Source of the DNA: Candidatus Shapirobacteria bacterium
GTDB taxonomy: Bacteria > Patescibacteriota > Microgenomatia > UBA12405
Direction of reading: 5' to 3'
Length of the DNA: 64,000 nt
NCBI GenBank assembly: GCA_022837635.1
Contig: JALHFY010000001.1
Span: 23,562-87,561 of the forward strand
Positions 2,653-48,404 of this stretch are shown here, piece after piece. The notes under the pieces were generated by a model. The model was not told the DNA's origin. It did not search any database and saw only the letters and a program-made list of their open reading frames with translations. A program made the position numbers and the translations under genes. The stretch's first letter is position 1; every line of letters starts with the position of its first letter.

Positions 2653-2680
2653 AAGCCCCCGCCGCAGCGGGGGACTTTGA
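2653..2680. terminator. Bidirectional rho-independent terminator shared by convergent genes
   Basis: GC hairpin gcccccgc-cgca-gcgggggac between the convergent CDS 1207..2652 and rplL. Confidence 0.6.
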
Positions 2681-13733: not shown

Positions 13734-14198
13734 ATGAATATGTCAATTGTGAGTAAGAAAGGAGATCGAGGGGAGACTTGGTATTTTGATAAAAGAGTGA
13801 GGAAGGATTCGGAGTTGATGGAAGCGGTAGGGAGTTTGGATGAATTGCAGGCGATTTGTGGGCTGGTTAAGTTAGAAAAAATACAAAAAGATTTATATGA
13901 AATAATGGCGAACTTAGACAAAGAAACTAGAAACAAGAAACTAGAAACCAGAATAAGGGAGATAGAGAAGGAGATAGAGATGATGGAGAAAAAGATAAAG
14001 GTGCCGAGGGAATTTGTGATTTTCAAAAAAGAGAAGGCGGTCAAGTTAAATTGGGTGAGAACGGTGGTGAGGAGAGCGGAGAGAATGATAATGAAACTAG
14101 AAACTAGAAACCAGAAACCAGATAAAGGTGTAATGATTTATTTAAATAGACTGTCCGATTTTATTTATTTAAGAGCTTTACAAGAAGAATTAAAATAA
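13734..14198 (+). CDS. PduO-type ATP:cob(I)alamin adenosyltransferase
   Basis: GDRGET...EAVGSLDEL at the N-terminus and VRTVVRRAERM...YLNRLSDFIYL at the C-terminus. The gene contains two CYAGAAA heptamer tracts. Confidence 0.65.
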   Translation: MNMSIVSKKGDRGETWYFDKRVRKDSELMEAVGSLDELQAICGLVKLEKIQKDLYEIMANLDKETRNKKLETRIREIEKEIEMMEKKIKVPREFVIFKKEKAVKLNWVRTVVRRAERMIMKLETRNQKPDKGVMIYLNRLSDFIYLRALQEELK

Positions 14199-14272
14199 AT
14201 TGGAATCAGGTGTAAGTCCTGAGCAGTGCCGCTACGGTAACAGCCCGAGCGAGAAAGCTTTCGAGCAAAAGT

Positions 14273-15118
14273 ATGAACAATAAAGAAAATTTTAAGCCTT
14301 ATTATGATATTAATCTACATAGTCATGAGGTGGTTGCCAGAGTGTTTCAAGAAGAAAGAAAAGGAGTGGGATTGGAATTGCGGATTGTTCATGCCGAAAA
14401 TTATGAAGAAAGTCGAATAAAGACTGATGATTGGGAATATAATCTCCATTCGGGAGCAGAAAAAAAAGCGACTCAAAATGTGTTTGAGTTATTGAGACAG
14501 GGTGCTCAAATGGTGATTTGGATTAGTCCACCCAGTGAAGTTTATGAAGAAGGGAGACTAAATGTAATGTTGAAAGGAGAGAAAGAGGGAGAATTGTTTT
14601 TCGATCCATACGGGTTACCATTGGATTTAAACAGAGAGGAGAGTTTGGAATTGGGACAGAGATTATGGAGAATGGAGGGTAAAAGTTTAGTTGCGCCATC
14701 AGATATAGAGATTTTACGGGAACAACCGATTGGTTTTTATCTGAGAGATAAAAATTGGTTGCAAAAGTGTCGGGAATTAATGCCAGAAATGGAATGGGCC
14801 TGGAAAACAATTGAGACGGGAAAGGTGGAGGAAAATATGAAAATAATTGCCGGTGAAGTGAAAGAAGCTAGACAAAAAGCTGGCGGAGATAATTATTTAT
14901 TTGAGGCGATAATGGCTAGAAATGGGTATTATTTGAACGTATCAGGAAGTCATGGAGGTTCGTGGTTGAGTCAGGAATTAGTCAGAAGTACACAGGGTAT
15001 AATCGCCTTTGATATAAATGGAAGAATAGAATATCGATTAGGAAGAACTGAGGGTTTACATTACTGCGAACGTTGTGGTTGTTGGTACAGTGGTGAAAAA
15101 TGTCCGGTCTGTAAATGA
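14273..15118 (+). CDS. Hypothetical protein with a C-terminal zinc ribbon (CERCGC...CPVC)
   Basis: No recognisable family. Confidence 0.4.
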   Translation: MNNKENFKPYYDINLHSHEVVARVFQEERKGVGLELRIVHAENYEESRIKTDDWEYNLHSGAEKKATQNVFELLRQGAQMVIWISPPSEVYEEGRLNVMLKGEKEGELFFDPYGLPLDLNREESLELGQRLWRMEGKSLVAPSDIEILREQPIGFYLRDKNWLQKCRELMPEMEWAWKTIETGKVEENMKIIAGEVKEARQKAGGDNYLFEAIMARNGYYLNVSGSHGGSWLSQELVRSTQGIIAFDINGRIEYRLGRTEGLHYCERCGCWYSGEKCPVCK

Positions 15119-18519: not shown

Positions 18520-18745
18520 AACGGAATAGGTTGGTGGGGTTTGATTATTCACAAGCAGGTTGGTATTTTGTCACCATTTGTAGTCAGGAAAAAGGAAATA
18601 TTTTTGGGGAGGTGGTGAAAGGGAAGGTGAAATAAATCAAAATATATTTTTGGATGAATATATAATCATGCCGGATCATGTGCATGGGATTATTGAAATC
18701 GTAGGGGCCGGGCAGTGCCCGGCCCGTACCAATTCGAAATTATAT
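18520..18745 (+). pseudogene. Degenerate fragment of an IS200/RAYT-type HUH transposase
   Basis: MPDHVHGIIEIVGAG, followed by the GC hairpin gggccgggcagtgcccggccc and ...ARTNSKL. The fragment is frameshifted and has no full ORF. Confidence 0.45.
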
Positions 18746-21399
18746 TATCGGGAATCCGAGGAATTTTTTAAAAGCCAAAAAAGGGTGATGATTAACAAGC
18801 CAAAGCCGAGGAATTGAAGCAGTTGAGGCCAGAATAAAATATAGATATCGGGACAGGGCGATGTCTTGTCTGTACATAGGGAATCAGGTAATTCCCAGGC
18901 ATTGGCCCAATTGTTCAAAAGATAATGGTTTTTAAGGAGATGTATTTTGCTGTTTTGTCGGTAAAAAGCCAACCAACCGGAAGAATAAGATTGAGGTAGG
19001 ATCAGAGTATGGGCTAGGGCATCAAGATTTATTTTGTAATAAAAAATACTGTTTTTAGAGTCGAGATAATGTCGATTAAGGGGAGCCGGATAATTTGGGG
19101 GACTGGAGAATAAGTTATAAACAGTGATGTTGTCAATATAGTTTTTGTTGGCTTGATGAAAACTGGTGTTATTGAAAATAAAATTAAGACCATAATCAAA
19201 AGTATCGGACTGTCGAGCGGGAATATAAAACCACGAAGTGGCGGGATTGGGAGAGATAGGGAGAAGGGTTTCAAAATACTTATTTAAAAGATTATCGGAA
19301 ATGGCGGAAATTTTGAGAGGCAATCCAGCTTCATGTCGAGAATTTATTTTGACCAGATAATTTTGGGAGAGAGAGGCTTTGGGGAAGTGAAAAGCAAAAA
19401 TGTTTTGCGTGGTATCTGAATGTTCCTGACTTTGAGTAACCAATACATTTTCGGTTAATAAAAGCGAGTTGGGATCAAAGTTTAATTCTGATTGCAGACG
19501 AGAAGTGAAATAATTATCAAAATTGGGGGAGGCTTGGTGGTCGACAAGATAGTCGCCCAATCTTTGATAATCATAATCGACTAGAGCAAAATCGAAAGCT
19601 GGGGCGGAAGGAAGTTGGGAGGTGGTAGCAATTTTAGTGGAAAAATTAGTTTGATAAACAGAAATATTTTGAGTTTGTTTGACCAGGATTAAATTAGGTA
19701 AACTGTCGAGTAAATTTTTGGTCGGTTGGGATAATTTACCGTAGATGTTTTCATCGGGAAAATAAATATTGTTGTCAAAAATAATGTATTCAATAAAATA
19801 TTTGGAAAAGACATTGTTTAACAGTAATGGATCTTGGCTTTGAATGGCATGACTTAATTCCCAATAATATTGTTCGTTTTTTAAATTCCAAGTATCAAAG
19901 GCACGGTCTAAAATTGGTTGAGGGATGGCATACCAAATGAAGCCAGAACCGGATAGATTCCATTTATAGTTGGTCCAACCCCAAAAAGAACCTTGGGGGA
20001 GATTGGCGATACGAGCGGTCGGGGCGACTTGAGATTGAAAAAAGTTAAAGATTTCCATGTATTCTTGGGGAATTTTTTGTCGAACATCAGGTGAGAAATA
20101 GTTACCACTAAAACTAGGTTGAGAGAAGAAATAAAGACAAAGAAGAGACAGAAAAATTGGCAACTTGGCGACAAAAGAAGAGTATTTTAATTGAGTTGCG
20201 ATTTGATAAAGGAGTTGTAAGCCTAAAGCAAAGAGGTAACTAAAAAGGAAGGCGGCGGGTACCAGAAATTTGGTCCAAGGTGAACGAAAAATTTGGTTGA
20301 TAATGGGCAGTGAACGGAGAGCTTGATTTAAAAGATTGAAAGGAAATTGGTTGGAAAGTAAAGTTAGGGCGGAGAGGAGTAATAAAAAAATAAGGGAGAT
20401 TTTAATATACTTGGGGGTATGTCGATGAGTAAAGAGAGAAATAAAACCTAAGATAACCACAAGAGATAAAAGATAGCCACAGAGGAGAAAATAATGATTG
20501 GAAAAATGTTGTTGCCACGCGGCTAAAAGAGCGGTATTGTTACTGGGAAAATCGTAATAATAGCCACGCAAGAGCAAAAAATCGCTTAGATTGCCCCGGG
20601 CCTGATTGCGAGCAAAGGTTTCATTGTTACTCATGAAATTGCCAATGCCGGCAGTGGGGTTTTGAAGATTGGTTTTGAGAAAATAAAGTTGAGATAAGAG
20701 CCAAAAAGAATTAATTAAGAAGATAATTAGATAAATAGATAAGTAGTTGGGAAGATGAGAAATTTTTGGACGGGTTATAAAATGGGCGAGTAAAATTAAC
20801 GAGATACACAGTAGATAGACAATAAAAATAGTTTGGACGTGGAAAGAGGGGATGGCTAGGATATTTAAGATAATCAGTTTTTTGAGGTGTTTTTTATTTT
20901 CCAAAAAATCCCAAAAAGTAAAAATCAGCCAGGGAAAAAAGCCCCAAAAGGTGGAAAATGATTCCAAAGGGACACGGAAATATTGAACAGAGCCGAAATT
21001 CAGAAGATAAAAAAGAGCAGCGGCGAGAGGGATTAATTTTTGGGACAGATGTTTTTTGAGACCAAAATAAATACCAAAGGTACCTAAAAAGAGCATGGCA
21101 AAATGCCAAAAATAACGGATTAATCTGACAGGTAGAATGAGGGTTAGGGGTAAGATGAGCAGTTGACGGATAAGATCAGTAGCGTGGGCCATACCACCGA
21201 CTAAACCTAGACCTTGATATTCTTGCCAGACGGCTAAAAAAGATCTTTTTAGATTTAAGCTGAGATTGAGTTCCGGCATGAGATTGTCCCAACCGATCAA
21301 AAAGGTACCGGGAGTATAGTTTTTAAGGCACAAAAGAGAGAGGACAGCGACTAAAATAATTTCGCTAAGATGTCGTTTACACCAGGCAAAGATAGGCAT
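18745..21399 (-). CDS. Large polytopic membrane protein, probably a GT-C-type glycosyltransferase
   Basis: An 884-aa protein with many transmembrane segments, adjacent to a GT2 gene. Confidence 0.4.
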   Translation of the reverse strand: MPIFAWCKRHLSEIILVAVLSLLCLKNYTPGTFLIGWDNLMPELNLSLNLKRSFLAVWQEYQGLGLVGGMAHATDLIRQLLILPLTLILPVRLIRYFWHFAMLFLGTFGIYFGLKKHLSQKLIPLAAALFYLLNFGSVQYFRVPLESFSTFWGFFPWLIFTFWDFLENKKHLKKLIILNILAIPSFHVQTIFIVYLLCISLILLAHFITRPKISHLPNYLSIYLIIFLINSFWLLSQLYFLKTNLQNPTAGIGNFMSNNETFARNQARGNLSDFLLLRGYYYDFPSNNTALLAAWQQHFSNHYFLLCGYLLSLVVILGFISLFTHRHTPKYIKISLIFLLLLSALTLLSNQFPFNLLNQALRSLPIINQIFRSPWTKFLVPAAFLFSYLFALGLQLLYQIATQLKYSSFVAKLPIFLSLLCLYFFSQPSFSGNYFSPDVRQKIPQEYMEIFNFFQSQVAPTARIANLPQGSFWGWTNYKWNLSGSGFIWYAIPQPILDRAFDTWNLKNEQYYWELSHAIQSQDPLLLNNVFSKYFIEYIIFDNNIYFPDENIYGKLSQPTKNLLDSLPNLILVKQTQNISVYQTNFSTKIATTSQLPSAPAFDFALVDYDYQRLGDYLVDHQASPNFDNYFTSRLQSELNFDPNSLLLTENVLVTQSQEHSDTTQNIFAFHFPKASLSQNYLVKINSRHEAGLPLKISAISDNLLNKYFETLLPISPNPATSWFYIPARQSDTFDYGLNFIFNNTSFHQANKNYIDNITVYNLFSSPPNYPAPLNRHYLDSKNSIFYYKINLDALAHTLILPQSYSSGWLAFYRQNSKIHLLKNHYLLNNWANAWELPDSLCTDKTSPCPDIYILFWPQLLQFLGFGLLIITLFWLLKNSSDSR

Positions 21400-22437: not shown

Positions 22438-23412
22438 TTATGGCATGATTACAATCTGCACACCTACCAAAATTTCATCAGGGAGATATTCTTTGAGTGA
22501 GTCAGTTACAGCTAGCCCCAGACGGCTGGTTATATCAAAATTGCCATTGAGGATTTCATCGACTACTCGATTGCTAATATCTTTTGTGAGGTGTGGTTGG
22601 TCAAACCATAAGACAAGTTCTGCGTTTCGTAGCTCGATGTCTTGGATACCAGACTTGAGTTGAAATAATGCACCTTCATTAAATTCGAGTCCATTAATAC
22701 GGATACCACCGCCAAAAATGACAGGGATGGTTTCACATGTATTAAGACGAACTTTGATCCAGGTATTTTCAACAGTCCTTAATTCAGTTTCTGTTAATGA
22801 TTCATTCCAAGCTTTGCCTGGTACGATGGTACGCCGCGAGGTCCAAACAACTCGGTTGCCGATATCGTGGACTGATTCGGTTTGGATATACTCTCCGGCA
22901 TCTGTCCAATTGACACCATCGATGGATATTTGAATGGTGTCACAAGCGACAACTTTGTCGTTAGGTTCTTCGGATGTTTCCGACTCTGTCGTTTCGACTG
23001 TCGGAGTAGGGGTGACGACCTCAACTTCTTCCGTTTCTGGTGTGGGAGTGACCTCAACTACAGGTTCTTCGGATGTTTCCGACTCTGTCGTTTCGACTGT
23101 TGGAGTGGGGGTGGGGGGAGTAACGTTGGTAGCTTTCGGTCGAAATACGATTAGAGCTATAATACCCGCCGCCAGTGCTATACCTACAAGCAACGGCCAC
23201 CACGGTCGACGTTGCGGTTCCTCCTGGGTGGTATTGGGGGTAGGGTCGACTTCGATGAAGTCGCCCTCTTCGATATTATTTTCATGGTCCATTATATTTT
23301 CCTTTCTTATCGGTGCCCAACCAGCGGCGACCAGTTTGCGTATTGTTGCTTTTTTAAGCTGACGCTCACGGTAACCTCGGCGGGCATTGATCTTGGTTTG
23401 TCTGGGGTCCAT
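22438..23412 (-). CDS. Membrane-anchored protein with a duplicated Thr/Pro/Glu-rich linker, lying in a GC-richer island. The likely start is the ATG at 23412 behind an AGGAGG Shine-Dalgarno sequence
   Basis: A transmembrane segment WWPLLVGIALAAGIIALIVF. The block TPTPTVETTESETSEEP occurs twice, encoded by 51-bp direct repeats at about 22964 and 23063. Confidence 0.5.
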   Translation of the reverse strand: MDPRQTKINARRGYRERQLKKATIRKLVAAGWAPIRKENIMDHENNIEEGDFIEVDPTPNTTQEEPQRRPWWPLLVGIALAAGIIALIVFRPKATNVTPPTPTPTVETTESETSEEPVVEVTPTPETEEVEVVTPTPTVETTESETSEEPNDKVVACDTIQISIDGVNWTDAGEYIQTESVHDIGNRVVWTSRRTIVPGKAWNESLTETELRTVENTWIKVRLNTCETIPVIFGGGIRINGLEFNEGALFQLKSGIQDIELRNAELVLWFDQPHLTKDISNRVVDEILNGNFDITSRLGLAVTDSLKEYLPDEILVGVQIVIMP

Positions 23413-23831
23413 TAACAGCCTCCTTTCTGGACGGGAGACCTCCCAGAATAAAAACATGTTGAATGCGAACTTCAGCCACCTGTGTGACAAGATCCGTCGT
23501 TGGACCTCTTATTGAACCCTCTCCTTTCAATAGAGTTCACTTAAGCCCGGAGTAGGGCGGGACTAAGTGAACTCTACTAAAGGAGTTTTTTTAGGAAAGA
23601 TTTTAGAAAGAGATTGTTAAAGAACTGTGTTTTTGGCTAATCCAAACGCGGTGTCTGGGTAGCCGCTGACACTGACTGGTGATAAACACCAGGGGAGAAA
23701 CGGAGTAAGTATGACGAGGAGCCACCTTACCCCGAGAGTCTCTCCTCTGATGTTTATTCAGAGGGAAGTTAAACTTCTAGTTGTTAAAAGATTGAAAGTT
23801 GACTATCACAATCAACAATCAATTGTAATGA
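23413..23831 (-). ncRNA. Long structured 5' leader / candidate cis-regulatory RNA of the CDS at 22438..23412
   Basis: About 410 nt with no ORF. A perfect 13-bp stem tagagttcactta / taagtgaactcta with a 20-nt GC loop lies at 23531-23576. Several additional hairpins are present, and a promoter sits upstream on the minus strand. Confidence 0.35.
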
Positions 23832-23912: not shown

Positions 23913-24281
23913 ATGTTACATATGACAACAATAAGTAAGATTATTAACAAATATAAAGAGTTCTATTTTCAACAATGGCGAGGTCATGAAAAAGAATGTC
24001 CGGTGTTTCAAGAAAAGGTATATGTAACTCGTTTGGGGTGGAATCATATTGTTTTTAACAAAAGACACAGATCAAAGGATGTGGTGATGAGATTGAAAGC
24101 GTTGATGTTAGCTAAAGAATTGTTGGAAAAAGCAACTATATATCAAGACAGACGAATTAAGAACGGCAATTATTTTTATGCGTTTGATGGTATTATTCGG
24201 AATAAAAAAATTAGAGTGATAGTGACTTCAAAGGGAAAGAAAGGTAAGAAGATCTTTTTGTCAGTGATTTATCGAGCATAA
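23913..24281 (+). CDS. Hypothetical protein
   Basis: A 122-aa ORF. Confidence 0.4.
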   Translation: MLHMTTISKIINKYKEFYFQQWRGHEKECPVFQEKVYVTRLGWNHIVFNKRHRSKDVVMRLKALMLAKELLEKATIYQDRRIKNGNYFYAFDGIIRNKKIRVIVTSKGKKGKKIFLSVIYRA

Positions 24282-25350: not shown

Positions 25351-25938
25351 TTAGATTTCAATCCAGCTAAAGTAAGTAGTTTTGTCAGGTTGGGTTTCTT
25401 TATAGCCAGTTTTGACTATCTGAGAGGGATTTAATTGTGTTTCATAAAAGAAACCGCGGTATTCGCTATTGAGGCCGGGATAACTAAGAGATGTACGTTT
25501 TGTTTGTGTGGTGCTAGTTGGTTGAAGAAATAAATTGTCGTTTCTAATACCAAGTTCTTCAGCCAGAGCTCTAAGAGCAGCTTTTTCGGGTTGTTCCCCA
25601 ATGTGTATTTTTTCGCTAACAGCACCGGTGGCATAATGTCTGGTTCTAATTCTTTCTTGGAGAGTGTTTTCATTGAAGACCTGTTTTTCTTCGATGAGTT
25701 GGTGCTTTTTGCCATCAAAAAATCCCAAAACATTGATGTCAACAAAATCAACTCTTCTGGTGAGCTCATTATTTTGAGATGTGAGATAACTATCGTGATT
25801 TTTTAACTCTTCAAAGAGGTGTTGAGGGGTTTTTGCGTAACCTTTTCCCCATTCGTTAATAGATATGTTAAATTTTTTAAGGATAGAGATTAGTGAAGGG
25901 AGGTCGGCGGGGACAGTGATTAACTGAGCTTCAATCAT
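25351..25938 (-). CDS. Hypothetical protein with a Nudix-box-like motif. The start is the ATG at 25938, not the longer ORF in the track
   Basis: GEQPEKAALRALAEELGI approximates the GX5EX7REUXEEXGU Nudix box. The upstream ORF extension is a translation of tRNA repeats. Confidence 0.3.
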   Translation of the reverse strand: MIEAQLITVPADLPSLISILKKFNISINEWGKGYAKTPQHLFEELKNHDSYLTSQNNELTRRVDFVDINVLGFFDGKKHQLIEEKQVFNENTLQERIRTRHYATGAVSEKIHIGEQPEKAALRALAEELGIRNDNLFLQPTSTTQTKRTSLSYPGLNSEYRGFFYETQLNPSQIVKTGYKETQPDKTTYFSWIEI

Positions 25939-26085
25939 GTGGACCCAAGGGGACTCGAACCCCTGACCTGTCCGATGTCCATCGGACCGCGTTGACAAAT
26001 GGATAACATACTGTGAACCCAAGGGGACTCGAACCCCTGACCTGTCCGATGTCCATCGGACCGCGTTGACAAATGGATAACATAC
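25938..26085 (-). repeat. Two tandem 74-bp units, each made of the 3' 31 nt of tRNA-Ala fused to a 24-nt palindromic core
   Basis: Unit starts are at 25938 and 26012. The core tgacctgtccgatgtccatcggac lies at 25964-25987 and 26038-26061. Confidence 0.85.
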
Positions 26086-26087
26086 TG

Positions 26088-26160
26088 TGGACCCAAGGGG
26101 ACTCGAACCCCTGACCTTCCCCATGCCATGGGGACGCGCTACCAACTACGCTATGGGCCC
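26088..26160 (-). tRNA. tRNA-Ala (anticodon GGC)
   Basis: Cloverleaf GGGCCCA..TTGGCAT loop..GGTTCGAGTCC..TGGGTCCA. Confidence 0.85.
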
Positions 26161-28026: not shown

Positions 28027-28803
28027 TTATTTTAGCAGATTTAAGAAACGATCTATGCCTAGACCCACACCACTGCAAAGTGAGAGGCGGCTGCAATAAT
28101 CGATAAAATCGGTGGAAATAGGATGGAGGGGTAGATGATGTTGCTGGCGATATTCTTTTTCCGCTTCAAAAGCGGATTTAATAGAATTGGTATCGGTATT
28201 TTCGACGCAACCATTGGCGATTTCGATGCCGTTGATGTAAAGTTCGAAACGATCGGCAATGGTTTGACCTGTCGAATTATCGACAGGTTTAGCCAGGGGT
28301 GAGAGATAAGCGGGGTAGCCGGTGACAAAGGTGCCACCTTGATGGGGGAGTTTTGCTTCAATTTCATTGAGAAAGTATTGGTTAAAATCAGCTTCATTTT
28401 GAGGTAGATTGGGGGGGAGTTTGAATTCGGTAAAATCAATTTTAAGAAAATGACGAACAAAATTTTTAGTAAATTTGATTAAATCGGCCAGATTTTGGTC
28501 AGGCAAATACCACTCTAACATGAGAAATTCAGGACTATGAAGCTCATTGCTGGCTTCCAGATCTCGAAAACAATGACCGATAGCAAAGCATTTTTGGCGA
28601 TTTTGAGACAGATGTTTTTTCAAAGCCAGCTCAGGGGAAGCGGGAAGATAAAAAGTTTGCTGTTGATGTTTCCAAATAGTTTCAAAAGAGTAGAGATTGG
28701 GTTCTAGAGGCAGACTAGAATTGAGATAAGGCACCTCAACTTCGACAAAGCCCCGGCGCCAAAAGTATTTCCTAATGGACTTTAATAATTCAGACTGTGT
28801 CAT
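28027..28803 (-). CDS. Class II aminoacyl-tRNA-synthetase-like core protein (EpmA/PoxA/GenX-like or a truncated KRS/NRS/DRS catalytic domain)
   Basis: Motif 2 CFRDLEASNELHSPEFLMLEWY and motif 3 GVGLGIDRFL. Confidence 0.55.
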   Translation of the reverse strand: MTQSELLKSIRKYFWRRGFVEVEVPYLNSSLPLEPNLYSFETIWKHQQQTFYLPASPELALKKHLSQNRQKCFAIGHCFRDLEASNELHSPEFLMLEWYLPDQNLADLIKFTKNFVRHFLKIDFTEFKLPPNLPQNEADFNQYFLNEIEAKLPHQGGTFVTGYPAYLSPLAKPVDNSTGQTIADRFELYINGIEIANGCVENTDTNSIKSAFEAEKEYRQQHHLPLHPISTDFIDYCSRLSLCSGVGLGIDRFLNLLK

Positions 28804-29978: not shown

Positions 29979-30761
29979 TCAATTAATTAAATGGCCGTCA
30001 AAGGCAGTTTTTGCTAAGGTATCGCAAAAGAACTCGCTACCTAGATCAGATGGGTGAATGTTGCTACCGGAATCAATCAGTTCCGGAAAACCGTCTTGAT
30101 TGATTAAACTAGGGCGATAGGCGTCAGCTAGGGATAGTTGATTTTTTTGACTGAAAGCGATGAAATTATCTAAATACAGTTTAATAGTGTTAGTTTTTTC
30201 AATTTTATCCATAGCGGTGAAATGGAGATTACTAAGACCATTGCCAAAGGTGACCGAATTGGGGGCAATAGTGGCGGCCATCATGATTTTGGTCTGAGGT
30301 AAGGAAGTTTTGATGGTGGAAATAATTTTTTCCAGTTCCTGCAGGTAGCGATTGAGACTGTTTTGAGAATTACCCAAATGATTGTAGGCAAAAGATTCGA
30401 GAATAATCAGGTCCGGTAATTGGGAGATAATAGAGGGATTTTGTTGATCCAGATAGCGAGTGCTTTGGGTTAAACGGTCGTAGGCGCTTTCGATAGTGGT
30501 GGCGCCATAACCATATTTGAGAAAATTGATTTGGGTTTGGGGATAGTATTTTTGAAAAGATTTTTGACAGAGATCGAGATTGAGAGTGTCAATCATGGAA
30601 TCACCTAGGAGAACAATTTTTTTGATTTGGGTTTGAGTACCTAGAACGGCTGGGGCGCTGGTGGGTAGAACTGGAGTGGGGGTGGGGGATACGGGAGTAG
30701 AAGCTACCGGTTTGTAGGCTTGAAGAAGTTGATAATAGAGAGGCACAATAGCTAAGAGCAT
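29979..30761 (-). CDS. SGNH/GDSL-family hydrolase, probably secreted
   Basis: GDS motif VLLGDSMID with a Pro/Thr-rich N-terminal linker. Confidence 0.6.
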   Translation of the reverse strand: MLLAIVPLYYQLLQAYKPVASTPVSPTPTPVLPTSAPAVLGTQTQIKKIVLLGDSMIDTLNLDLCQKSFQKYYPQTQINFLKYGYGATTIESAYDRLTQSTRYLDQQNPSIISQLPDLIILESFAYNHLGNSQNSLNRYLQELEKIISTIKTSLPQTKIMMAATIAPNSVTFGNGLSNLHFTAMDKIEKTNTIKLYLDNFIAFSQKNQLSLADAYRPSLINQDGFPELIDSGSNIHPSDLGSEFFCDTLAKTAFDGHLIN

Positions 30762-30806
30762 ATTTATATTTCAGGATATCATTTATTGATATAATGGGCT
30801 GTATTA

Positions 30807-30893
30807 GGAGGGTTGGCCGAGTGGTTTATGGCGCTAGTTTTGAAAACTAGTGAGCGCAAGCTCTCAGGGGTTCGAATCCCTTACCCTCCGCTG
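30807..30893 (+). tRNA. tRNA-Ser (anticodon TGA), long variable arm
   Basis: GGAGGGTTGGCCGAGTGG...CTAGTTTTGAAAACTAG...GGTTCGAATCC. Confidence 0.85.
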
Positions 30894-30920
30894 AAAAGTT
30901 TCTTGAGAAAAATTTATATT

Positions 30921-30975
30921 GAGCCTGGAATGGAATTTGAATCCATGACCTGTCCGATGTCCATCGGACTGCTCG
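30921..30975 (-). repeat. Duplicated 3' half of tRNA-Thr (T-arm plus acceptor 3' strand) fused to the 24-nt palindromic core
   Basis: gagcctggaatggaatttgaatccatgacc is identical to the 3' end of the intact tRNA-Thr at 31245-31274. The core lies at 30946-30969. Confidence 0.85.
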
Positions 30976-30976
30976 A

Positions 30977-31243
30977 TTAAAATGATTTGGTTATTTTTTG
31001 ATTCGCAATAATTTGTTCAATTAAAGTTTTACTTTTTTGTCGTTTGAGCCAAAATTCAATTTTTCGAGCCATTGTTAATGTTGGATATTCCTGTTGAAAG
31101 ACGAGTTTAAGGGGTAAAGAAAAACTGGTGTAAGTGCTGCGTCCACTAAGATGTTCTTGAAGTCGGCGATTTAAATCAGCGGTGCTACCAATGTAAAAAC
31201 GAGAGTTTTTGAGAGATTGGAGAATATAAACGTAGGCAGACAT
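30977..31243 (-). CDS. GIY-YIG nuclease-domain protein. The start is the ATG at 31243
   Basis: MSAYVYILQSLKNSRFYIGSTADLNRRLQEH. The longer ORF in the track runs into the tRNA. Confidence 0.75.
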   Translation of the reverse strand: MSAYVYILQSLKNSRFYIGSTADLNRRLQEHLSGRSTYTSFSLPLKLVFQQEYPTLTMARKIEFWLKRQKSKTLIEQIIANQKITKSF

Positions 31244-31244
31244 T

Positions 31245-31318
31245 GAGCCTGGAATGGAATTTGAATCCATGACCTTCCCCTTACCAAGGGGATGCTCTAC
31301 CAACTGAGCTATCCAGGC
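31245..31318 (-). tRNA. tRNA-Thr (anticodon GGT)
   Basis: GCCTGGATAGCTCAGTTGGTAGAGCATCCCCTTGGTAAGGGGAAGGTCATGGATTCAAATTCCAT... Confidence 0.85.
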
Positions 31319-31320
31319 AA

Positions 31321-31437
31321 ATTGTTAATCCATGACCTGTCCGATGTCCATCGGACTGCTCTCAACTGAGCCATGAGTCAAAGTTAATCCATGACCTGTC
31401 CGATGTCCATCGGACTGCTCTCGCCTCTAGGCTGGCT
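31321..31437 (-). repeat. Two tandem pseudo-tRNA units (about 59 nt each). Each has a D-arm-like segment, then the palindromic core in place of the anticodon arm, then a truncated T-arm
   Basis: Both units share the exact 41-mer gttaatccatgacctgtccgatgtccatcggactgctctc. The cores lie at 31334-31356 and 31393-31415. Confidence 0.8.
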
Positions 31438-31532
31438 GACCTGAGAGATTGCTTGTTATTTTAACAAATAAAGGTGAGATTGTGGTGGATATTGTATTTA
31501 TGACTAACTCATACTAAAATAGTGCGAGTTGT

Positions 31533-32231
31533 ATGCTTCAATTAAAAAACATTACCCTGGAAAAAGAGGGGAAGAAAATCTTAAACAAGATAAACTTAAA
31601 ATTGGATGATAACCGGTTTTATGTGTTAACCGGACCCAATGGTAGTGGCAAATCAAGTTTGGCCAAGGTGATTATGGGAATAGAAAGCCCTAATGAGGGG
31701 GAGATTTGGTGGCAAGATAGGGAAATAACTAGGGAAAGGATTGAGTTGAGAGCCAAAGAGGGTATAGCTTTTGCTTTTCAGCAACCGGTGCGTTTTAAGG
31801 GGATAAAGGTATCGAAGTTGTTGGAATTGGCGGCGGGGACTAAAAAAATCAGAGGTTGTGGGGTTTTAGCTCAGGTAGGTTTGTGTCCAAAGGATTATTT
31901 AGACAGGGAAATGAATGGATCGCTGTCTGGAGGGGAATTAAAAAGGATTGAGATGGCGACAGTAATTTTGCGAAAACCAAAATTGGTAATTTTCGATGAG
32001 CCGGAGGCGGGAATTGATTTATGGAGTTTTCAAAATTTGATTGAAGTTTTTAAGAAATTGAGAAAAAATTACCACGGAACGATATTAGTCATCTCTCATC
32101 AAGAGAAAATTATGGAAATTGCCGATAAAATATTGCTTTTGAAAAGAGGTAAATTAGAGGAGGTAGAGAAAATTGACAATTTAAGAATTCGCCAAAAATG
32201 TGGTTGTCGGGGAGGTTGTATTCATGAATAA
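31533..32231 (+). CDS. sufC: Fe-S cluster assembly ATPase SufC
   Basis: ABC ATPase motifs GPNGSGKSS and LSGGELKR, with a Cys-rich C-terminal tail CGCRGGC. Confidence 0.75.
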   Translation: MLQLKNITLEKEGKKILNKINLKLDDNRFYVLTGPNGSGKSSLAKVIMGIESPNEGEIWWQDREITRERIELRAKEGIAFAFQQPVRFKGIKVSKLLELAAGTKKIRGCGVLAQVGLCPKDYLDREMNGSLSGGELKRIEMATVILRKPKLVIFDEPEAGIDLWSFQNLIEVFKKLRKNYHGTILVISHQEKIMEIADKILLLKRGKLEEVEKIDNLRIRQKCGCRGGCIHE

Positions 32232-47707: not shown

Positions 47708-47974
47708 ATGCCATTTATTAAAAATTCAGAAGGACGTCCTTCTGGTACTGAAGTTGTGGATTTAAAACCGGATGGTGGAGAATCGCGTATCATTCATTAT
47801 ACTTGTAATTCTCCCCATAATGATGTGCTTAAGAAGCATAACATTCTACCGATAGGAGGAGGTTTTGATGTAGAGCCTAGAGAAGTATTATTAATTCCGA
47901 TAAAATTAATGGATGGTAGAGGTGATCCAGGGGATACTGCAGGGGTGGAACATATGCTTAGAGATTTAAAATAA
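47708..47974 (+). CDS. Hypothetical protein. The ATG at 47708 is preferred over the TTG start in the track
   Basis: The ORF begins MPFIKNSEGRP. Confidence 0.4.
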   Translation: MPFIKNSEGRPSGTEVVDLKPDGGESRIIHYTCNSPHNDVLKKHNILPIGGGFDVEPREVLLIPIKLMDGRGDPGDTAGVEHMLRDLK

Positions 47975-48384: not shown

Positions 48385-48404
48385 AAAGGCGCTCGCCTTT
48401 ATTT
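48385..48404 (+). terminator. Rho-independent terminator aaaggcg-ctc-gccttt followed by a T-run
   Basis: Read directly. Confidence 0.5.

What the first reader, a model, noticed from the sequence alone, without database searches (positions are those of the whole stretch)
30921..31437. GIY-YIG endonuclease gene sandwiched between intact tRNA-Thr(GGT) and a duplicated tRNA-Thr 3' half plus palindrome, with two more pseudo-tRNA copies upstream
On the minus strand the order is as follows. First come two about 59-nt pseudo-tRNA units (31437 to 31321). Each has a recognisable D-arm (for example TGGCTCAGTTGAGAGCA) but the anticodon arm is replaced by the same GTCCGATGGACATCGGAC palindrome, and the T-arm is truncated. 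Then comes the intact tRNA-Thr (31318 to 31245). Then comes an 88-aa GIY-YIG nuclease whose ATG is 1 nt after the tRNA. Last is palindrome + CAGGTC + an exact copy of the tRNA-Thr T-arm and acceptor 3' strand (30975 to 30921). A GIY-YIG gene flanked by direct repeats of a tRNA 3' half is the footprint expected of a small mobile / homing cassette inserted at a tRNA. The palindrome being shared with the tRNA-Ala locus links the two sites to one element family.
Basis: partly seen in the sequence, partly recalled or inferred. Interest (0 to 1): 0.8.

Follow-up and report, generated by a model that had tools for sequence, protein, structure and literature searches.

The report
Nuclease cassette nested in split tRNA genes
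A tiny nuclease gene sits glued to a working tRNA-Thr gene, bracketed by broken copies of that tRNA whose anticodon arm has been swapped for an 18-bp DNA palindrome; the same design recurs at many different tRNA genes in many uncultured bacteria, which marks it as a selfish element family I could not find described.

Summary
On the minus strand lie two 59-nt pseudo-tRNA 5' units, an intact tRNA-Thr(GGT), an 88-aa GIY-YIG ORF starting 1-2 nt after the tRNA, then palindrome plus an exact 34-nt copy of the tRNA 3' end. The palindrome occurs 5 times in the window (0 expected), twice as ORF-less units after tRNA-Ala.

It is not a one-off. Relatives carry the same layout with compensatory palindrome variants. 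Of 70 non-redundant metagenomic homologues, 58 abut a co-oriented tRNA of 12 amino-acid types. 45 of those 58 have a displaced fragment of that tRNA, and 50 have a GC-rich palindrome. The palindrome replaces the anticodon arm to the base in about 80% of sites. Empty sites exist. In two lineages the inner tRNA is a different allele from the outer fragments.

The ORF is under purifying selection (dN/dS about 0.1). Its fold is closest to the UPF0213/Slx1 structure-selective nucleases and it has no DNA-binding domain. No integrase, transposase or phage copy was found.

Best reading: a selfish tRNA-nested nuclease cassette with the palindrome as its cis-site. The cleavage target and copying mechanism are inferred, not shown. 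I found no published description.

The parts
31383..31441 (-). U1: upstream pseudo-tRNA 5' unit. It is a degenerate leader plus D arm, then GAGCA, the palindrome, and AGGTCATGGATTAAC.
   Evidence: It gives no tRNA model hit. There are 2 copies here and in L001/L002, and 3 in the close relative L024.
31324..31382 (-). U2: second 59-nt upstream unit, in tandem with U1. Its D arm (GCTCAGTTG..AGAGCA) is recognisable, the anticodon arm is replaced by the palindrome, and the T arm is truncated after ATGGATT.
31398..31415 (.). Palindrome copy in U1 (GTCCGATG-GA-CATCGGAC, 8-2-8).
   Evidence: 5 copies, 0 expected by chance
31339..31356 (.). Palindrome copy in U2.
31245..31318 (-). Intact tRNA-Thr(GGT), the functional gene inside the bracket.
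   Evidence: ARAGORN; Rfam 72 bits
30977..31243 (-). 88-aa minimal GIY-YIG nuclease ORF. The ATG is 1-2 nt after the tRNA 3' end, which leaves no room for a Shine-Dalgarno site.
   Evidence: Pfam PF01541 E=7e-13. Y6, Y17, R27, H31 and E63 are invariant in 24 homologues. The AF2 model has pLDDT 89, and its nearest structures are UPF0213 1zg2 and Slx1. dN/dS is 0.09-0.13.
30918..30976 (-). Downstream unit: TC + GAGCA (D-stem 3' strand) + palindrome in place of the anticodon arm + variable loop, T arm, acceptor 3' strand and 4 nt of trailer.
30952..30969 (.). Palindrome copy in the downstream unit.
31242..31275 (-). Direct repeat copy 1 (34 nt, tRNA positions 44-73 plus CAAT).
   Evidence: exact, with maximal extent 34 nt
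30918..30951 (-). Direct repeat copy 2 (34 nt, identical to copy 1).
26087..26160 (-). Intact tRNA-Ala(GGC), the second locus of the same element family.
26013..26086 (-). ORF-less unit 1 after tRNA-Ala: a spacer (A + 21 nt) + GCG + palindrome (26044-26061) + the tRNA-Ala variable loop, T arm and acceptor 3' strand (1 mismatch).
25939..26012 (-). ORF-less unit 2 after tRNA-Ala (palindrome at 25970-25987, tRNA 3' part exact). It is followed directly by the ATG (25938) of a NUDIX-family gene.

Best explanation
The locus is one copy of a widespread selfish cassette. A minimal GIY-YIG nuclease gene of the Slx1/UPF0213 type lives glued to, and co-oriented with, a functional tRNA gene. Both sit inside a bracket of displaced fragments of the same tRNA. 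In those fragments the anticodon arm (positions 27-43) is precisely replaced by an element-specific 16-20 bp GC-rich DNA palindrome with arm consensus GTCCGAYG.

**Shown**
- The architecture and its recurrence at 12 tRNA types.
- Exact palindrome boundaries at the base of the anticodon arm.
- Presence/absence polymorphism among relatives.
- Uniformity of the palindrome within a genome, and compensatory divergence between genomes.
- Purifying selection on the ORF, and its fold class.

**Inferred working model**
1. The ORF is transcribed with the tRNA. In this type-A layout it is released by tRNA 3' processing as an essentially leaderless mRNA.
2. The nuclease has no DNA-binding domain and belongs to a structure-selective lineage. 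It cuts hairpin or cruciform DNA formed by the palindrome and, less well, by the naturally near-palindromic anticodon arm of tRNA genes. The cuts fall at the base of the arm.
3. The break is repaired by recombination through the short tRNA homologies on either side. This copies the cassette (ORF + palindrome, sometimes with a whole tRNA) into a tRNA gene. The resident gene is split into a 5' and a 3' fossil while one working tRNA is kept.
4. Gene conversion keeps the palindromes of one genome identical.
5. Unequal crossing-over between the direct repeats makes tandem arrays (U1/U2). It can also delete the ORF, leaving ORF-less palindrome units such as those at tRNA-Ala.
For: **Same layout in relatives.** L003 (74% identity) has palindrome GTCCGGTGGACACCGGAC. 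L004/L015 (60%) has GTCCCGCCGCTGCGGGAC. L026 (61%) has the 16-nt GTCCGAAATTTCGGAC.

**Palindrome scan of species genomes.** Of 21 hits, 14 are true palindromes (arms of 7 bp or more). All 14 lie at tRNA loci, mostly in CPR (Candidate Phyla Radiation / Patescibacteria) genomes. The 7 non-palindromic hits are chance matches in unrelated genomes.

**Metagenome homologues.**
- 390 relatives were found.
- Of 70 non-redundant ORFs, 58 abut a co-oriented tRNA (Thr, Ile, Val, Ala, Asp, Gly, Met, Lys, Glu, Arg, Pro, Gln).
- Of those 58, 45 have a fragment of that tRNA and 50 have a GC-rich palindrome.
- Perfect palindromes occur at 0.68/kb within 400 nt of the ORF, against 0.05/kb elsewhere in the same loci.

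**Palindrome properties.**
- Boundaries are exact at the anticodon-arm base in 45/56 (left) and 42/53 (right) sites.
- After setting aside about 13 genuine anticodon arms from the 54 sequences, roughly three quarters of the remaining palindromes have an unpaired centre of only 0-2 nt. That is more symmetry than an RNA hairpin needs.
- Arm positions 3-5 (CCG) are nearly invariant in 43 variants.

**Evidence of movement.**
- Empty or partial sites exist in L019 and L005.
- In L004/L015/L045 and L026/L053 the outer halves (GCCCGGA...TCCGGGC, T arm ATGAATTCGAATTTCAT) pair with each other and equal the resident tRNA of L003/L005. The inner tRNA differs at 8 positions (GCCTGGA, T arm GTGGATCCGAGTTCCAC).
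- Deep nodes of the protein tree mix tRNA species.

**The protein.** Its fold is nearest UPF0213 1zg2, Slx1 and At-HIGLE, ahead of I-TevI and UvrC. dN/dS is 0.087 and 0.126.

**Other points.**
- Palindrome units outnumber ORFs (window 5:1; GCA_964405765 7:1 in the parts fetched).
- Tandem copy number differs between near-identical strains (2 versus 3).
- There is no recombinase within about 12 kb on either side.
- A parallel exists in CPR rRNA genes: GIY-YIG ORFs sit in non-intron insertions, and insertions lie mostly at the top or base of stem-loops (PMC11270868).
Against: - Nuclease activity, its substrate and any break-repair step are untested.
- The intact inner tRNA carries the same anticodon arm as an empty target. 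A nuclease cutting that arm would therefore also threaten its own host gene, and the model needs the palindrome to be the much better substrate.
- In the close relative L024 the downstream palindrome has decayed at about the synonymous rate (4 of 18 nt) while the ORF is intact. That copy is therefore not needed for ORF maintenance.
- Strong purifying selection and long persistence at the same tRNA (dS about 1.9 between the window and L003) are unusual for a purely parasitic homing gene. They would also fit a host-useful function.
- The near-invariant CCG...CGG could mean sequence-specific rather than structure-specific recognition, or merely common descent.
- No joints with the anticodon arm simply deleted were found.
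- No circular or excised forms were looked for.
- The protein tree is based on about 88 residues and is weakly resolved.
Confidence: 0.7

Rival explanations
1. This is a classical free-standing homing endonuclease of the Seg type. The protein recognises a specific DNA sequence in or next to the tRNA gene of cassette-free genomes, cuts it, and is copied in by repair. The downstream tRNA 3' copy serves as a portable homology arm. The palindrome is only an accessory: an RNA hairpin stabilising or ending the mRNA, or a patch that makes the displaced fragment uncuttable.
For: - The ORF is a GIY-YIG nuclease next to tRNA genes, as for T4 SegB (PMC2330249).
- Empty and filled sites exist.
- The direct repeats would give homology on both sides.
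- In type-A loci the palindrome sits a few nt after the stop codon, where a 3' stabiliser would be.
- CCG...CGG is conserved.
Against: - The protein is 88 aa, a catalytic domain only, with no DNA-binding module. Its nearest relatives are structure-selective nucleases, not I-TevI or Seg.
- The family occupies 12 different tRNA types, which is hard to reconcile with one long specific site.
- The palindromes are symmetric right to the centre, can be inverted (L003), occur upstream of the ORF in type-B loci, and occur without any ORF.
- No T-tract terminator is predicted.
- No viral copies were found.
Confidence: 0.2
2. This is a host-useful, domesticated small nuclease expressed from tRNA operons, for example in DNA repair at highly transcribed, hairpin-prone stable-RNA genes. 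The tRNA fragments, palindromes and tandem units would be by-products of replication slippage and hairpin-induced rearrangement at those loci, not parts of a mobile element.
For: - dN/dS is about 0.1, and the ORF persists at the same tRNA over large divergence.
- The family is very large: 6,457 cluster representatives at E<=1e-10.
- The ORF is tightly co-oriented with tRNAs.
- The downstream palindrome decays neutrally in L024.
Against: - Presence is patchy among close relatives.
- The associated tRNA differs between neighbouring clades.
- The palindrome replaces the anticodon arm precisely, and it is co-inherited with the ORF across the family.
- The inner tRNA allele is foreign to the outer fragments in L004 and L026.
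- Some contigs carry several copies within 3 kb (L076, L093).
Confidence: 0.1
3. These are remnants (attL/attR) of integrase-mediated genomic islands or prophages that integrated into tRNA genes and later decayed.
For: - Direct repeats of a tRNA 3' end flanking foreign DNA are the hallmark of such islands.
- One distant homologue (L032, Chitinophagales) lies next to a phage-type integrase.
Against: - There is no recombinase within about 12 kb on either side of the window locus, nor in the CPR loci examined.
- The cargo is a single 267-nt ORF.
- 5' fragments are as common as 3' fragments.
- The palindrome is not tRNA sequence, yet it sits exactly at the anticodon-arm position.
- The same design recurs in roughly 40 to 58 independent loci.
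Confidence: 0.02

Closest known systems
Stand-alone UPF0213 / prokaryotic Slx1-like GIY-YIG proteins (BH0048 1zg2, EF2693 1ywl; E. coli YhbQ, B. subtilis YazA)
   Same: Same size and domain content, with a catalytic domain only. They are the best sequence match (E=1.4e-7) and the best structural match. Dunin-Horkawicz et al. (PMC1564403) describe them as the minimal form of the fold.
   Different: No function, cis-site or genomic habit has been assigned to these proteins in the literature I could search. Here the subfamily has a defined habitat (tRNA genes) and a co-inherited palindrome.
Free-standing GIY-YIG homing endonucleases of T-even phages, especially SegB in the T4 tRNA gene cluster (PMC2330249)
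   Same: A selfish GIY-YIG nuclease gene lodged among tRNA genes, with presence/absence polymorphism between related genomes.
   Different: By my own knowledge, Seg proteins are more than 200 aa and carry DNA-binding domains. They reside in phages and leave no partial tRNA duplications or palindromes. No relatives of the present family were found in viral contigs.
Mitochondrial homing-endonuclease insertions that displace part of the host gene (for example the GIY-YIG element at the 3' end of Allomyces atp6; recalled from memory, not checked here)
   Same: The nuclease ORF abuts a functional gene whose terminal segment was brought in with the ORF. The original segment lies displaced just downstream as a fossil.
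   Different: The host gene there is protein-coding. There is no palindrome at the junction, no 5'-side fossils and no tandem arrays.
Short GC-rich palindromes of AT-rich organelle genomes: the Neurospora 18-nt palindromes flanking tRNA genes (Yin et al. 1981, cited in PMC4478555) and yeast mitochondrial GC clusters (PMC4478555)
   Same: 16-20 nt GC-rich palindromes in an AT-rich genome, concentrated at tRNA genes, multi-copy and apparently mobile.
   Different: Those elements are not reported to replace anticodon arms inside tRNA fragments, nor to travel with a dedicated nuclease gene.
REP sequences with their RAYT transposase; IS200/IS605 hairpin-recognising elements
   Same: Many short palindromic repeats and few copies of one small associated nuclease gene (window 5:1). 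The repeat sequence is specific to each genome.
   Different: The enzyme class differs (HUH tyrosine transposase versus GIY-YIG). Those elements have no tRNA mimicry or tRNA targeting.
Non-intron insertion sequences with GIY-YIG ORFs in CPR rRNA genes (PMC11270868)
   Same: Same phylum and same nuclease superfamily. The insertions are in genes for structured RNAs, mostly at the top or base of stem-loops.
   Different: The host genes are rRNA, not tRNA. No palindrome or gene-fragment bracket is described there. Relatedness of those proteins to this family was not tested.

Membership tests
GIY-YIG nuclease superfamily (PF01541) | Profile match above the curated threshold | tested here: met
   49.1 bits against a cut-off of 22.6, E=7e-13
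GIY-YIG nuclease superfamily (PF01541) | Catalytic residues: the two motif tyrosines, Arg, His and Glu | tested here: met
   Y6, Y17, R27, H31 and E63 are invariant in the 24-sequence alignment A1
GIY-YIG nuclease superfamily (PF01541) | Three-stranded sheet flanked by helices | tested here: met
   AF2 model with pLDDT 89 has the element order E-E-H-E-H-H. Foldseek hits are to GIY-YIG domains only.
GIY-YIG nuclease superfamily (PF01541) | Endonuclease activity | not testable with these tools
   Needs biochemistry
Slx1 / UPF0213 lineage (structure-selective nucleases) | Closer to Slx1/UPF0213 than to the I-TevI or UvrC lineage | tested here: met
   By phmmer: 1zg2 E=1.4e-7, 1ywl E=1.4e-3, I-TevI E=0.1. 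By Foldseek the order is 1zg2, Slx1 (rmsd 2.2-2.7 A, 30% identity), At-HIGLE, then I-TevI and UvrC.
Slx1 / UPF0213 lineage (structure-selective nucleases) | Preference for branched, hairpin or four-way DNA | not testable with these tools
   Inferred from homology only
Homing endonuclease genes (free-standing) | Presence/absence polymorphism at the homologous site in related genomes | tested here: met
   L019 is empty, L005 lacks the ORF, and other Shapirobacteria are occupied
Homing endonuclease genes (free-standing) | Long sequence-specific target, read by a dedicated DNA-binding domain | tested here: not met
   The protein is 88 aa with a catalytic domain only. The family sits at 12 tRNA types.
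Homing endonuclease genes (free-standing) | Cleavage of the empty allele and copying by break repair | not testable with these tools
   Needs in vitro cleavage and genetic crosses
Homing endonuclease genes (free-standing) | Horizontal movement independent of the host | tested here: inconclusive
   The inner tRNA allele is foreign to the outer fragments in L004 and L026. Deep tree nodes mix tRNA species, but the tree is weak.
Integrase-type islands in tRNA genes | Tyrosine or serine recombinase gene in the element | tested here: not met
   None in the 0.5-kb unit nor within about 12 kb on either side
Integrase-type islands in tRNA genes | Direct repeat of the tRNA 3' part at both ends | tested here: met
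   34-nt exact repeat
REP/RAYT and IS200/IS605 | HUH (Y1) transposase | tested here: not met
   The only ORF is GIY-YIG
Group I intron in a tRNA gene | Intron RNA fold interrupting a single tRNA gene | tested here: not met
   No Rfam intron hit in the window or region. The tRNA is uninterrupted.

The most novel reading that the evidence does not exclude
This is a new class of mobile element that finds its target by DNA shape rather than sequence. A minimal Slx1-like GIY-YIG resolvase would cut the cruciform that the anticodon-arm inverted repeat of any tRNA gene can form, at the base of the arm. The element would insert there between two copies of its own perfect palindrome. It would split the resident tRNA gene and replace it with an element-borne copy, so the host becomes dependent on the element's tRNA. 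ORF-less palindrome units would be its non-autonomous derivatives, mobilised in trans.
Probability: 0.25. Interest if true: 0.9.

Novelty: new variant of a known kind. Interest (0 to 1): 0.78.

Why it matters
- It gives a habitat, a cis-element and a testable activity to the stand-alone UPF0213/Slx1-like GIY-YIG proteins. This is a very large family (6,457 cluster representatives at E<=1e-10) for which I found no assigned function in the searched literature.
- It explains why tRNA loci of CPR genomes are littered with tRNA fragments, GC-rich palindromes and tandem units. It also explains why gene order around them is unstable.
- It flags an annotation trap. Gene callers extend the ORF into the tRNA (P0001 is called at 97 aa). 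ARAGORN calls palindrome-bearing fragments as tRNA-Pro(cgg) or tRNA-Thr(agt) in soil loci.
- If the structure-guided model is right, an 88-aa nuclease with an 18-bp palindromic site would be among the smallest self-contained nuclease/site pairs I know of (own knowledge).

Tried and rejected
1. **Integrase att remnants.** No recombinase is nearby, and the palindrome is not tRNA sequence.
2. **Extra or unusual tRNA genes.** The units give no tRNA model hit at E<=10. An 8-nt anticodon loop (quadruplet decoder) fits some palindrome variants (U33/A37) but fails in GTCCCGCCGCTGCGGGAC, GTCCGAAAGCTTTCGGAC and others.
3. **Split or trans-spliced tRNA halves, or an intervening sequence inside one tRNA.** The outer halves lack any anticodon, so they could not decode.
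4. **Group I intron.** There is no Rfam hit.
5. **Intrinsic terminator.** None is predicted and there is no T tract.
6. **Palindrome as promoter.** One weak -35/-10 match uses the palindrome centre TGGACA. It is at shuffle level (2 found, 2.5 expected). It would start transcription inside the tRNA, and the centre is not conserved in other genomes.
7. **Phage vehicle.** The palindrome pattern has no hit in viral contigs, and only N-terminal-motif hits to unrelated phage GIY-YIG proteins were found.
8. **Simple excision footprints.** No D-stem/variable-loop joints lacking the anticodon arm occur in any locus.
9. **Literature.** Eight full-text searches found no description of this architecture. 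The library lacks most subscription journals, so absence is not proof.
Full report
**1. The observation.**

Reading 30600-31800 on the minus strand gives this order:
- U1 (31383-31441) and U2 (31324-31382);
- tRNA-Thr(GGT) (31245-31318);
- an 88-codon ORF (30977-31243);
- a 59-nt downstream unit (30918-30976).

ARAGORN and Rfam both call the tRNA (72 bits). The ORF matches Pfam GIY-YIG at E=7e-13. The downstream unit reads TC-GAGCA-GTCCGATGGACATCGGAC-AGGTC-T arm-acceptor 3' strand-CAAT. It shares an exact 34-nt direct repeat with the tRNA 3' end plus 4 nt of trailer, and the repeat does not extend further.

U1 and U2 are 59-nt tandem units. Each has a degenerate leader and D arm, then GAGCA, the same palindrome, then AGGTCATGGATT, and then breaks off. 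The palindrome occurs five times in the window, against none in 100 shuffles. The other two copies lie in two tandem 74-nt units directly after tRNA-Ala(GGC). Each of those units consists of a spacer of A + 21 nt, GCG, the palindrome, and the tRNA-Ala variable loop, T arm and acceptor strand. In every case the palindrome occupies the place of the anticodon arm of the local tRNA. None of the units is recognised as a tRNA even at E<=10.

**2. It is a conserved design, not an accident of this genome.**

The protein has homologues of 42-100% identity. The loci encoding P0002 (74%), P0006 (60%) and P0007 (61%) have the same order. That order is an upstream 5' fragment with a palindrome, an intact tRNA-Thr(GGT), the ORF, then a palindrome plus a 3' fragment.

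The palindromes differ between these loci but stay palindromic: GTCCGGTG-GA-CACCGGAC, GTCCCGC-CGCT-GCGGGAC and GTCCGAAATTTCGGAC. In L003 the centre of the downstream copy is inverted (TC for GA).

I scanned 185,579 species genomes for GAGCAGTCC-N10-GGACAGGTC. This spacing cannot match a normal 17-nt anticodon arm. The scan gave 21 loci.
- 14 have true palindromes (arms of 7 bp or more). All 14 lie at tRNA genes. They come from Shapirobacteria, other Microgenomates, Paceibacterota, two Ignavibacteria and one MAG (metagenome-assembled genome) labelled Clostridia.
- The other 7 are non-palindromic chance hits in unrelated genomes.

Within one genome the same palindrome marks different tRNA species: GCA_964405765 has it at Thr, Arg and two Val genes; the window has it at Thr and Ala. 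Between genomes it differs.

**3. The protein family lives at tRNA genes.**

A profile scan of JGI metagenomes found 390 relatives, and the best 80 loci were kept. Counts for the 70 non-redundant ORFs are as follows:

| Feature | Count |
|---|---|
| Abut a co-oriented tRNA gene | 58 of 70 |
| ...of which have a fragment of that same tRNA within 300 nt | 45 of 58 |
| ...of which have a GC-rich palindrome | 50 of 58 |
| ...of which have both | 40 of 58 |

The tRNAs are Thr, Ile, Val, Ala, Asp, Gly, Met, Lys, Glu, Arg, Pro and Gln.

Two arrangements occur.
- **Type A** (as in the window): tRNA, then ORF, then D-arm remnant, palindrome and 3' part.
- **Type B**: 5' part and palindrome, then ORF, then tRNA.

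Several loci have fossils on both sides (L041, L048, L072, L082, L091). The general form is therefore [leader-5' part-palindrome]n, then {tRNA, ORF in either order}, then [palindrome-3' part]n.

Further measurements:
- Perfect palindromes (arms of at least 8 bp, centre at most 2 nt) occur at 0.68/kb within 400 nt of the ORF and 0.05/kb elsewhere in the same loci.
- Where the flanks can be matched to the neighbouring tRNA, the palindrome starts exactly after position 26 in 45 of 56 sites. It ends exactly before position 44 in 42 of 53 sites.
- One search listed 54 distinct arm-position sequences. About 13 of them are genuine anticodon arms. Of the rest, roughly three quarters have an unpaired centre of only 0-2 nt. 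This is more symmetry than an RNA hairpin needs, and it points to a DNA-level palindrome.
- The arm consensus is G-T-C-C-G-A-Y-G, with CCG nearly invariant in 43 variants.
- Natural anticodon arms in these genomes are themselves 7-3-7 or 8-1-8 near-palindromes.

**4. Packing and expression signals.**

In 15 of 30 type-A loci the start codon lies -1 to +3 nt from the tRNA end. In the window the junction reads ...GGCTCAATG. There is no room for a ribosome-binding site.

In 16 of 28 type-B loci the stop codon is the T8-A9-G10 of the intact tRNA. Several type-A ORFs (ending ...SW*) stop at the TAG of the GGTAGAGC remnant.

I infer co-transcription with the tRNA. For type A, I infer release of a near-leaderless mRNA by tRNA 3' processing. 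Neither was tested. No terminator, and no promoter above shuffle level, is predicted in the region.

**5. Evidence bearing on mobility.**

- **Empty and partial sites.** L019 has tRNA-Thr(GGT) 41 nt from tRNA-Ser with neither ORF nor palindrome. It does carry a palindrome unit at its tRNA-Thr(TGT). L005 is syntenic with the window but has only the upstream unit.
- **Foreign inner tRNA.** In L004/L015/L045 and L026/L053 the two outer fragments pair with each other (GCCCGGA/TCCGGGC). Hairpin insertions aside, they equal the resident tRNA-Thr of L003/L005. The inner functional tRNA differs at 8 positions, all in compensating pairs or the T loop. Neutral fossils that stay unchanged while the functional gene changes at 8 sites are best explained by import of the inner tRNA together with the ORF. 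That import split the resident gene at its anticodon arm.
- **Target switching.** In a neighbour-joining tree, shallow clades keep their tRNA species and type. Deep nodes interleave Thr, Ile, Val, Ala, Gly, Asp, Lys and Met loci. The tree is weakly resolved because the protein has only 88 residues.
- **Repeats include flanks.** Direct repeats include tRNA flank sequence: an 11-nt leader in L082, a roughly 40-nt leader in L037, 4 nt of trailer at the window Thr locus, and the spacer in the window Ala units. This fits single-crossover or break-repair insertion followed by unequal crossing-over. The number of upstream units differs between near-identical strains, 2 in the window, L001 and L002 against 3 in L024.
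- **Units outnumber ORFs.** The ratio of palindrome units to ORFs is 5:1 in the window.
- **No other mobility genes.** No integrase or transposase lies within about 12 kb on either side; the neighbours are housekeeping genes. No full-length relative and no palindrome match occur in 2.9 million viral contigs.

**6. The protein.**

Y6, Y17, R27, H31 and E63 are invariant in 24 homologues. The best solved relatives by sequence are the UPF0213 proteins BH0048 (E=1.4e-7) and EF2693. I-TevI and Slx1 are marginal.

An AlphaFold model (pLDDT 89) is closest to 1zg2. Next come Slx1 nuclease domains (rmsd 2.2-2.7 A, 30% identity) and the Arabidopsis Slx1-lineage junction resolvase HIGLE. All rank ahead of I-TevI and UvrC. 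There is no second domain.

The family is very large, with 26,541 cluster representatives at E<=1e-3 and 6,457 at E<=1e-10, almost all 82-130 aa.

The ORF is under purifying selection. dN/dS is 0.087 against L024 (dS 0.225) and 0.126 against L003 (dS 1.87). In L024 the downstream palindrome has 4 changes in 18 nt and the 3' fragment 3 in 28. That is about the synonymous rate. Its three upstream palindromes are perfect. Individual units are therefore dispensable and decay unless refreshed.

**7. Interpretation.**

The shown facts define a family of cassettes: a minimal GIY-YIG gene, a co-inherited palindrome, a working tRNA, and displaced fragments of that tRNA with the palindrome at the base of the missing anticodon arm.

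My preferred mechanism is inferred. The nuclease comes from a structure-selective lineage and has no DNA-binding domain. I propose it cuts hairpin or cruciform DNA at the base of the arm. The breaks would then be repaired through the short tRNA homologies. This would spread and homogenise the palindrome and occasionally carry the ORF (with or without a tRNA) into another tRNA gene.

This model accounts for four observations:
- the exact boundaries;
- the wide tRNA range;
- the uniformity within a genome;
- the parallel report that GIY-YIG-bearing, non-intron insertions in CPR rRNA genes accompany insertion sites mostly at the top or base of stem-loops (PMC11270868).

The weak points are these:
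- the inner tRNA carries the same arm as an empty target;
- the conserved CCG...CGG may indicate sequence recognition instead;
- strong purifying selection could reflect a host-useful role.

Rivals are scored in their own section.

**8. Novelty.**

Eight full-text searches and targeted reading of four papers found no description of this architecture:
- the GIY-YIG phylogenomics paper;
- the Patescibacteria tRNA-intron paper;
- the CPR rRNA insertion paper;
- a resolvase review.

The nearest known things are T4 SegB, mitochondrial endonuclease insertions that displace a gene end, organellar GC-rich palindromes at tRNA genes, and REP/RAYT pairs. I file it as a new variant of the selfish nuclease-cassette kind. 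There is a real chance that it is a distinct, structure-guided class.

Noticed in passing
window 25354-25938 (-): A NUDIX-family gene (Pfam E=1.3e-5) starts with its ATG directly after the last base of the second tRNA-Ala palindrome unit (...GGGTCCAC|ATG). This is the same 'tRNA 3' end + ATG' junction as the GIY-YIG ORF. It suggests this housekeeping gene is also expressed from the tRNA transcript without a leader.
   Followed up: partly
L096, L099, L101, L103 (soil metagenome loci), about 1116-1208 / 1700-1797: In soil tRNA-Val(GAC) loci the palindrome is 17 nt (GGCCGACCGGGTCGGCC). It therefore mimics a 5-7-5 anticodon arm. ARAGORN calls the downstream fragment a tRNA-Pro(cgg) or tRNA-Thr(agt) overlapping the ORF end, which is a source of false tRNA annotations.
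   Followed up: partly
L034/L035 about 1850-2060 (GCA_040960375 / GCA_040960175): A full-length tRNA-Ile(TAT)-like gene lies next to the intact one. Its anticodon arm and acceptor stem are intact, but it has three GC-rich hairpin insertions (in the D loop, at the D/anticodon junction and in the T loop). It is either a pseudogene or an unprecedented multi-insert tRNA.
   Followed up: no
L003 2640-2900, L008 4650-4780, L017 1790-1880, L019 6790-6900: The upstream 5' fossils are riddled with additional small GC-rich hairpins inserted in the D loop or D stem, for example CTCCGAGCCTTCGGAG and CCCCGATCACAATATCGGGG. These differ from the anticodon-position palindrome and may be a second, independent hairpin repeat family.
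   Followed up: no
L024 3690-4130: The close relative UBA1420 has about 360 nt extra, with an opposite-strand ORF, between the decayed 3' fragment and tRNA-Ser. The relative orientation of tRNA-Ser and tRNA-Thr(GGT) also differs among relatives: convergent in the window, L003 and L005; same strand in L015, L019 and L026; divergent in L014 and L018. This indicates frequent rearrangement at this spot.
   Followed up: partly
window 14156-14276 (+): Cobalamin riboswitch aptamer, just above the Rfam gathering score (35.9 versus 31.5 bits).
   Followed up: no
window 2656-2673, 18705-18725, 47727-47744, 48385-48400: Other GC-rich palindromes unrelated in sequence to the tRNA-linked one: CCCCCGCCGCAGCGGGGG; GGGCCGGGCAGTGCCCGGCCC between convergent genes; the perfect 18-mer CAGAAGGACGTCCTTCTG; and AAAGGCGCTCGCCTTT 24 nt upstream of tRNA-Asn.
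   Followed up: no
window 18748-21399 (-), 22441-23490 (-) and 23913-24278 (+): ORFs of 884, 350 and 122 aa with no Pfam match at E<=1e-3.
   Followed up: no
window 28030-28803 (-): A 258-aa ORF matches only the catalytic core of class II aminoacyl-tRNA synthetases (tRNA-synt_2, E=7e-36). It has no anticodon-binding domain, so it may be a truncated synthetase or an AsnA/paralogue-type protein.
   Followed up: no
P0001, P0002, P0006 and many entries: Public gene calls for this family often carry 9-60 extra N-terminal residues. In the three loci examined here (P0001, P0002, P0006), the caller started at an in-frame ATG or GTG inside the upstream tRNA's T arm, for example MDSNSIPGS-MSAYVYIL.
   Followed up: partly
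L032 1150-1980 (Chitinophagales MAG): A 51%-identical homologue is flanked by three direct repeats. Each repeat is a tRNA-like 3' end with a hairpin in the T loop plus a terminator. A phage-type integrase lies next to it and no intact tRNA was called. This looks like a Bacteroidota version of the theme.
   Followed up: no
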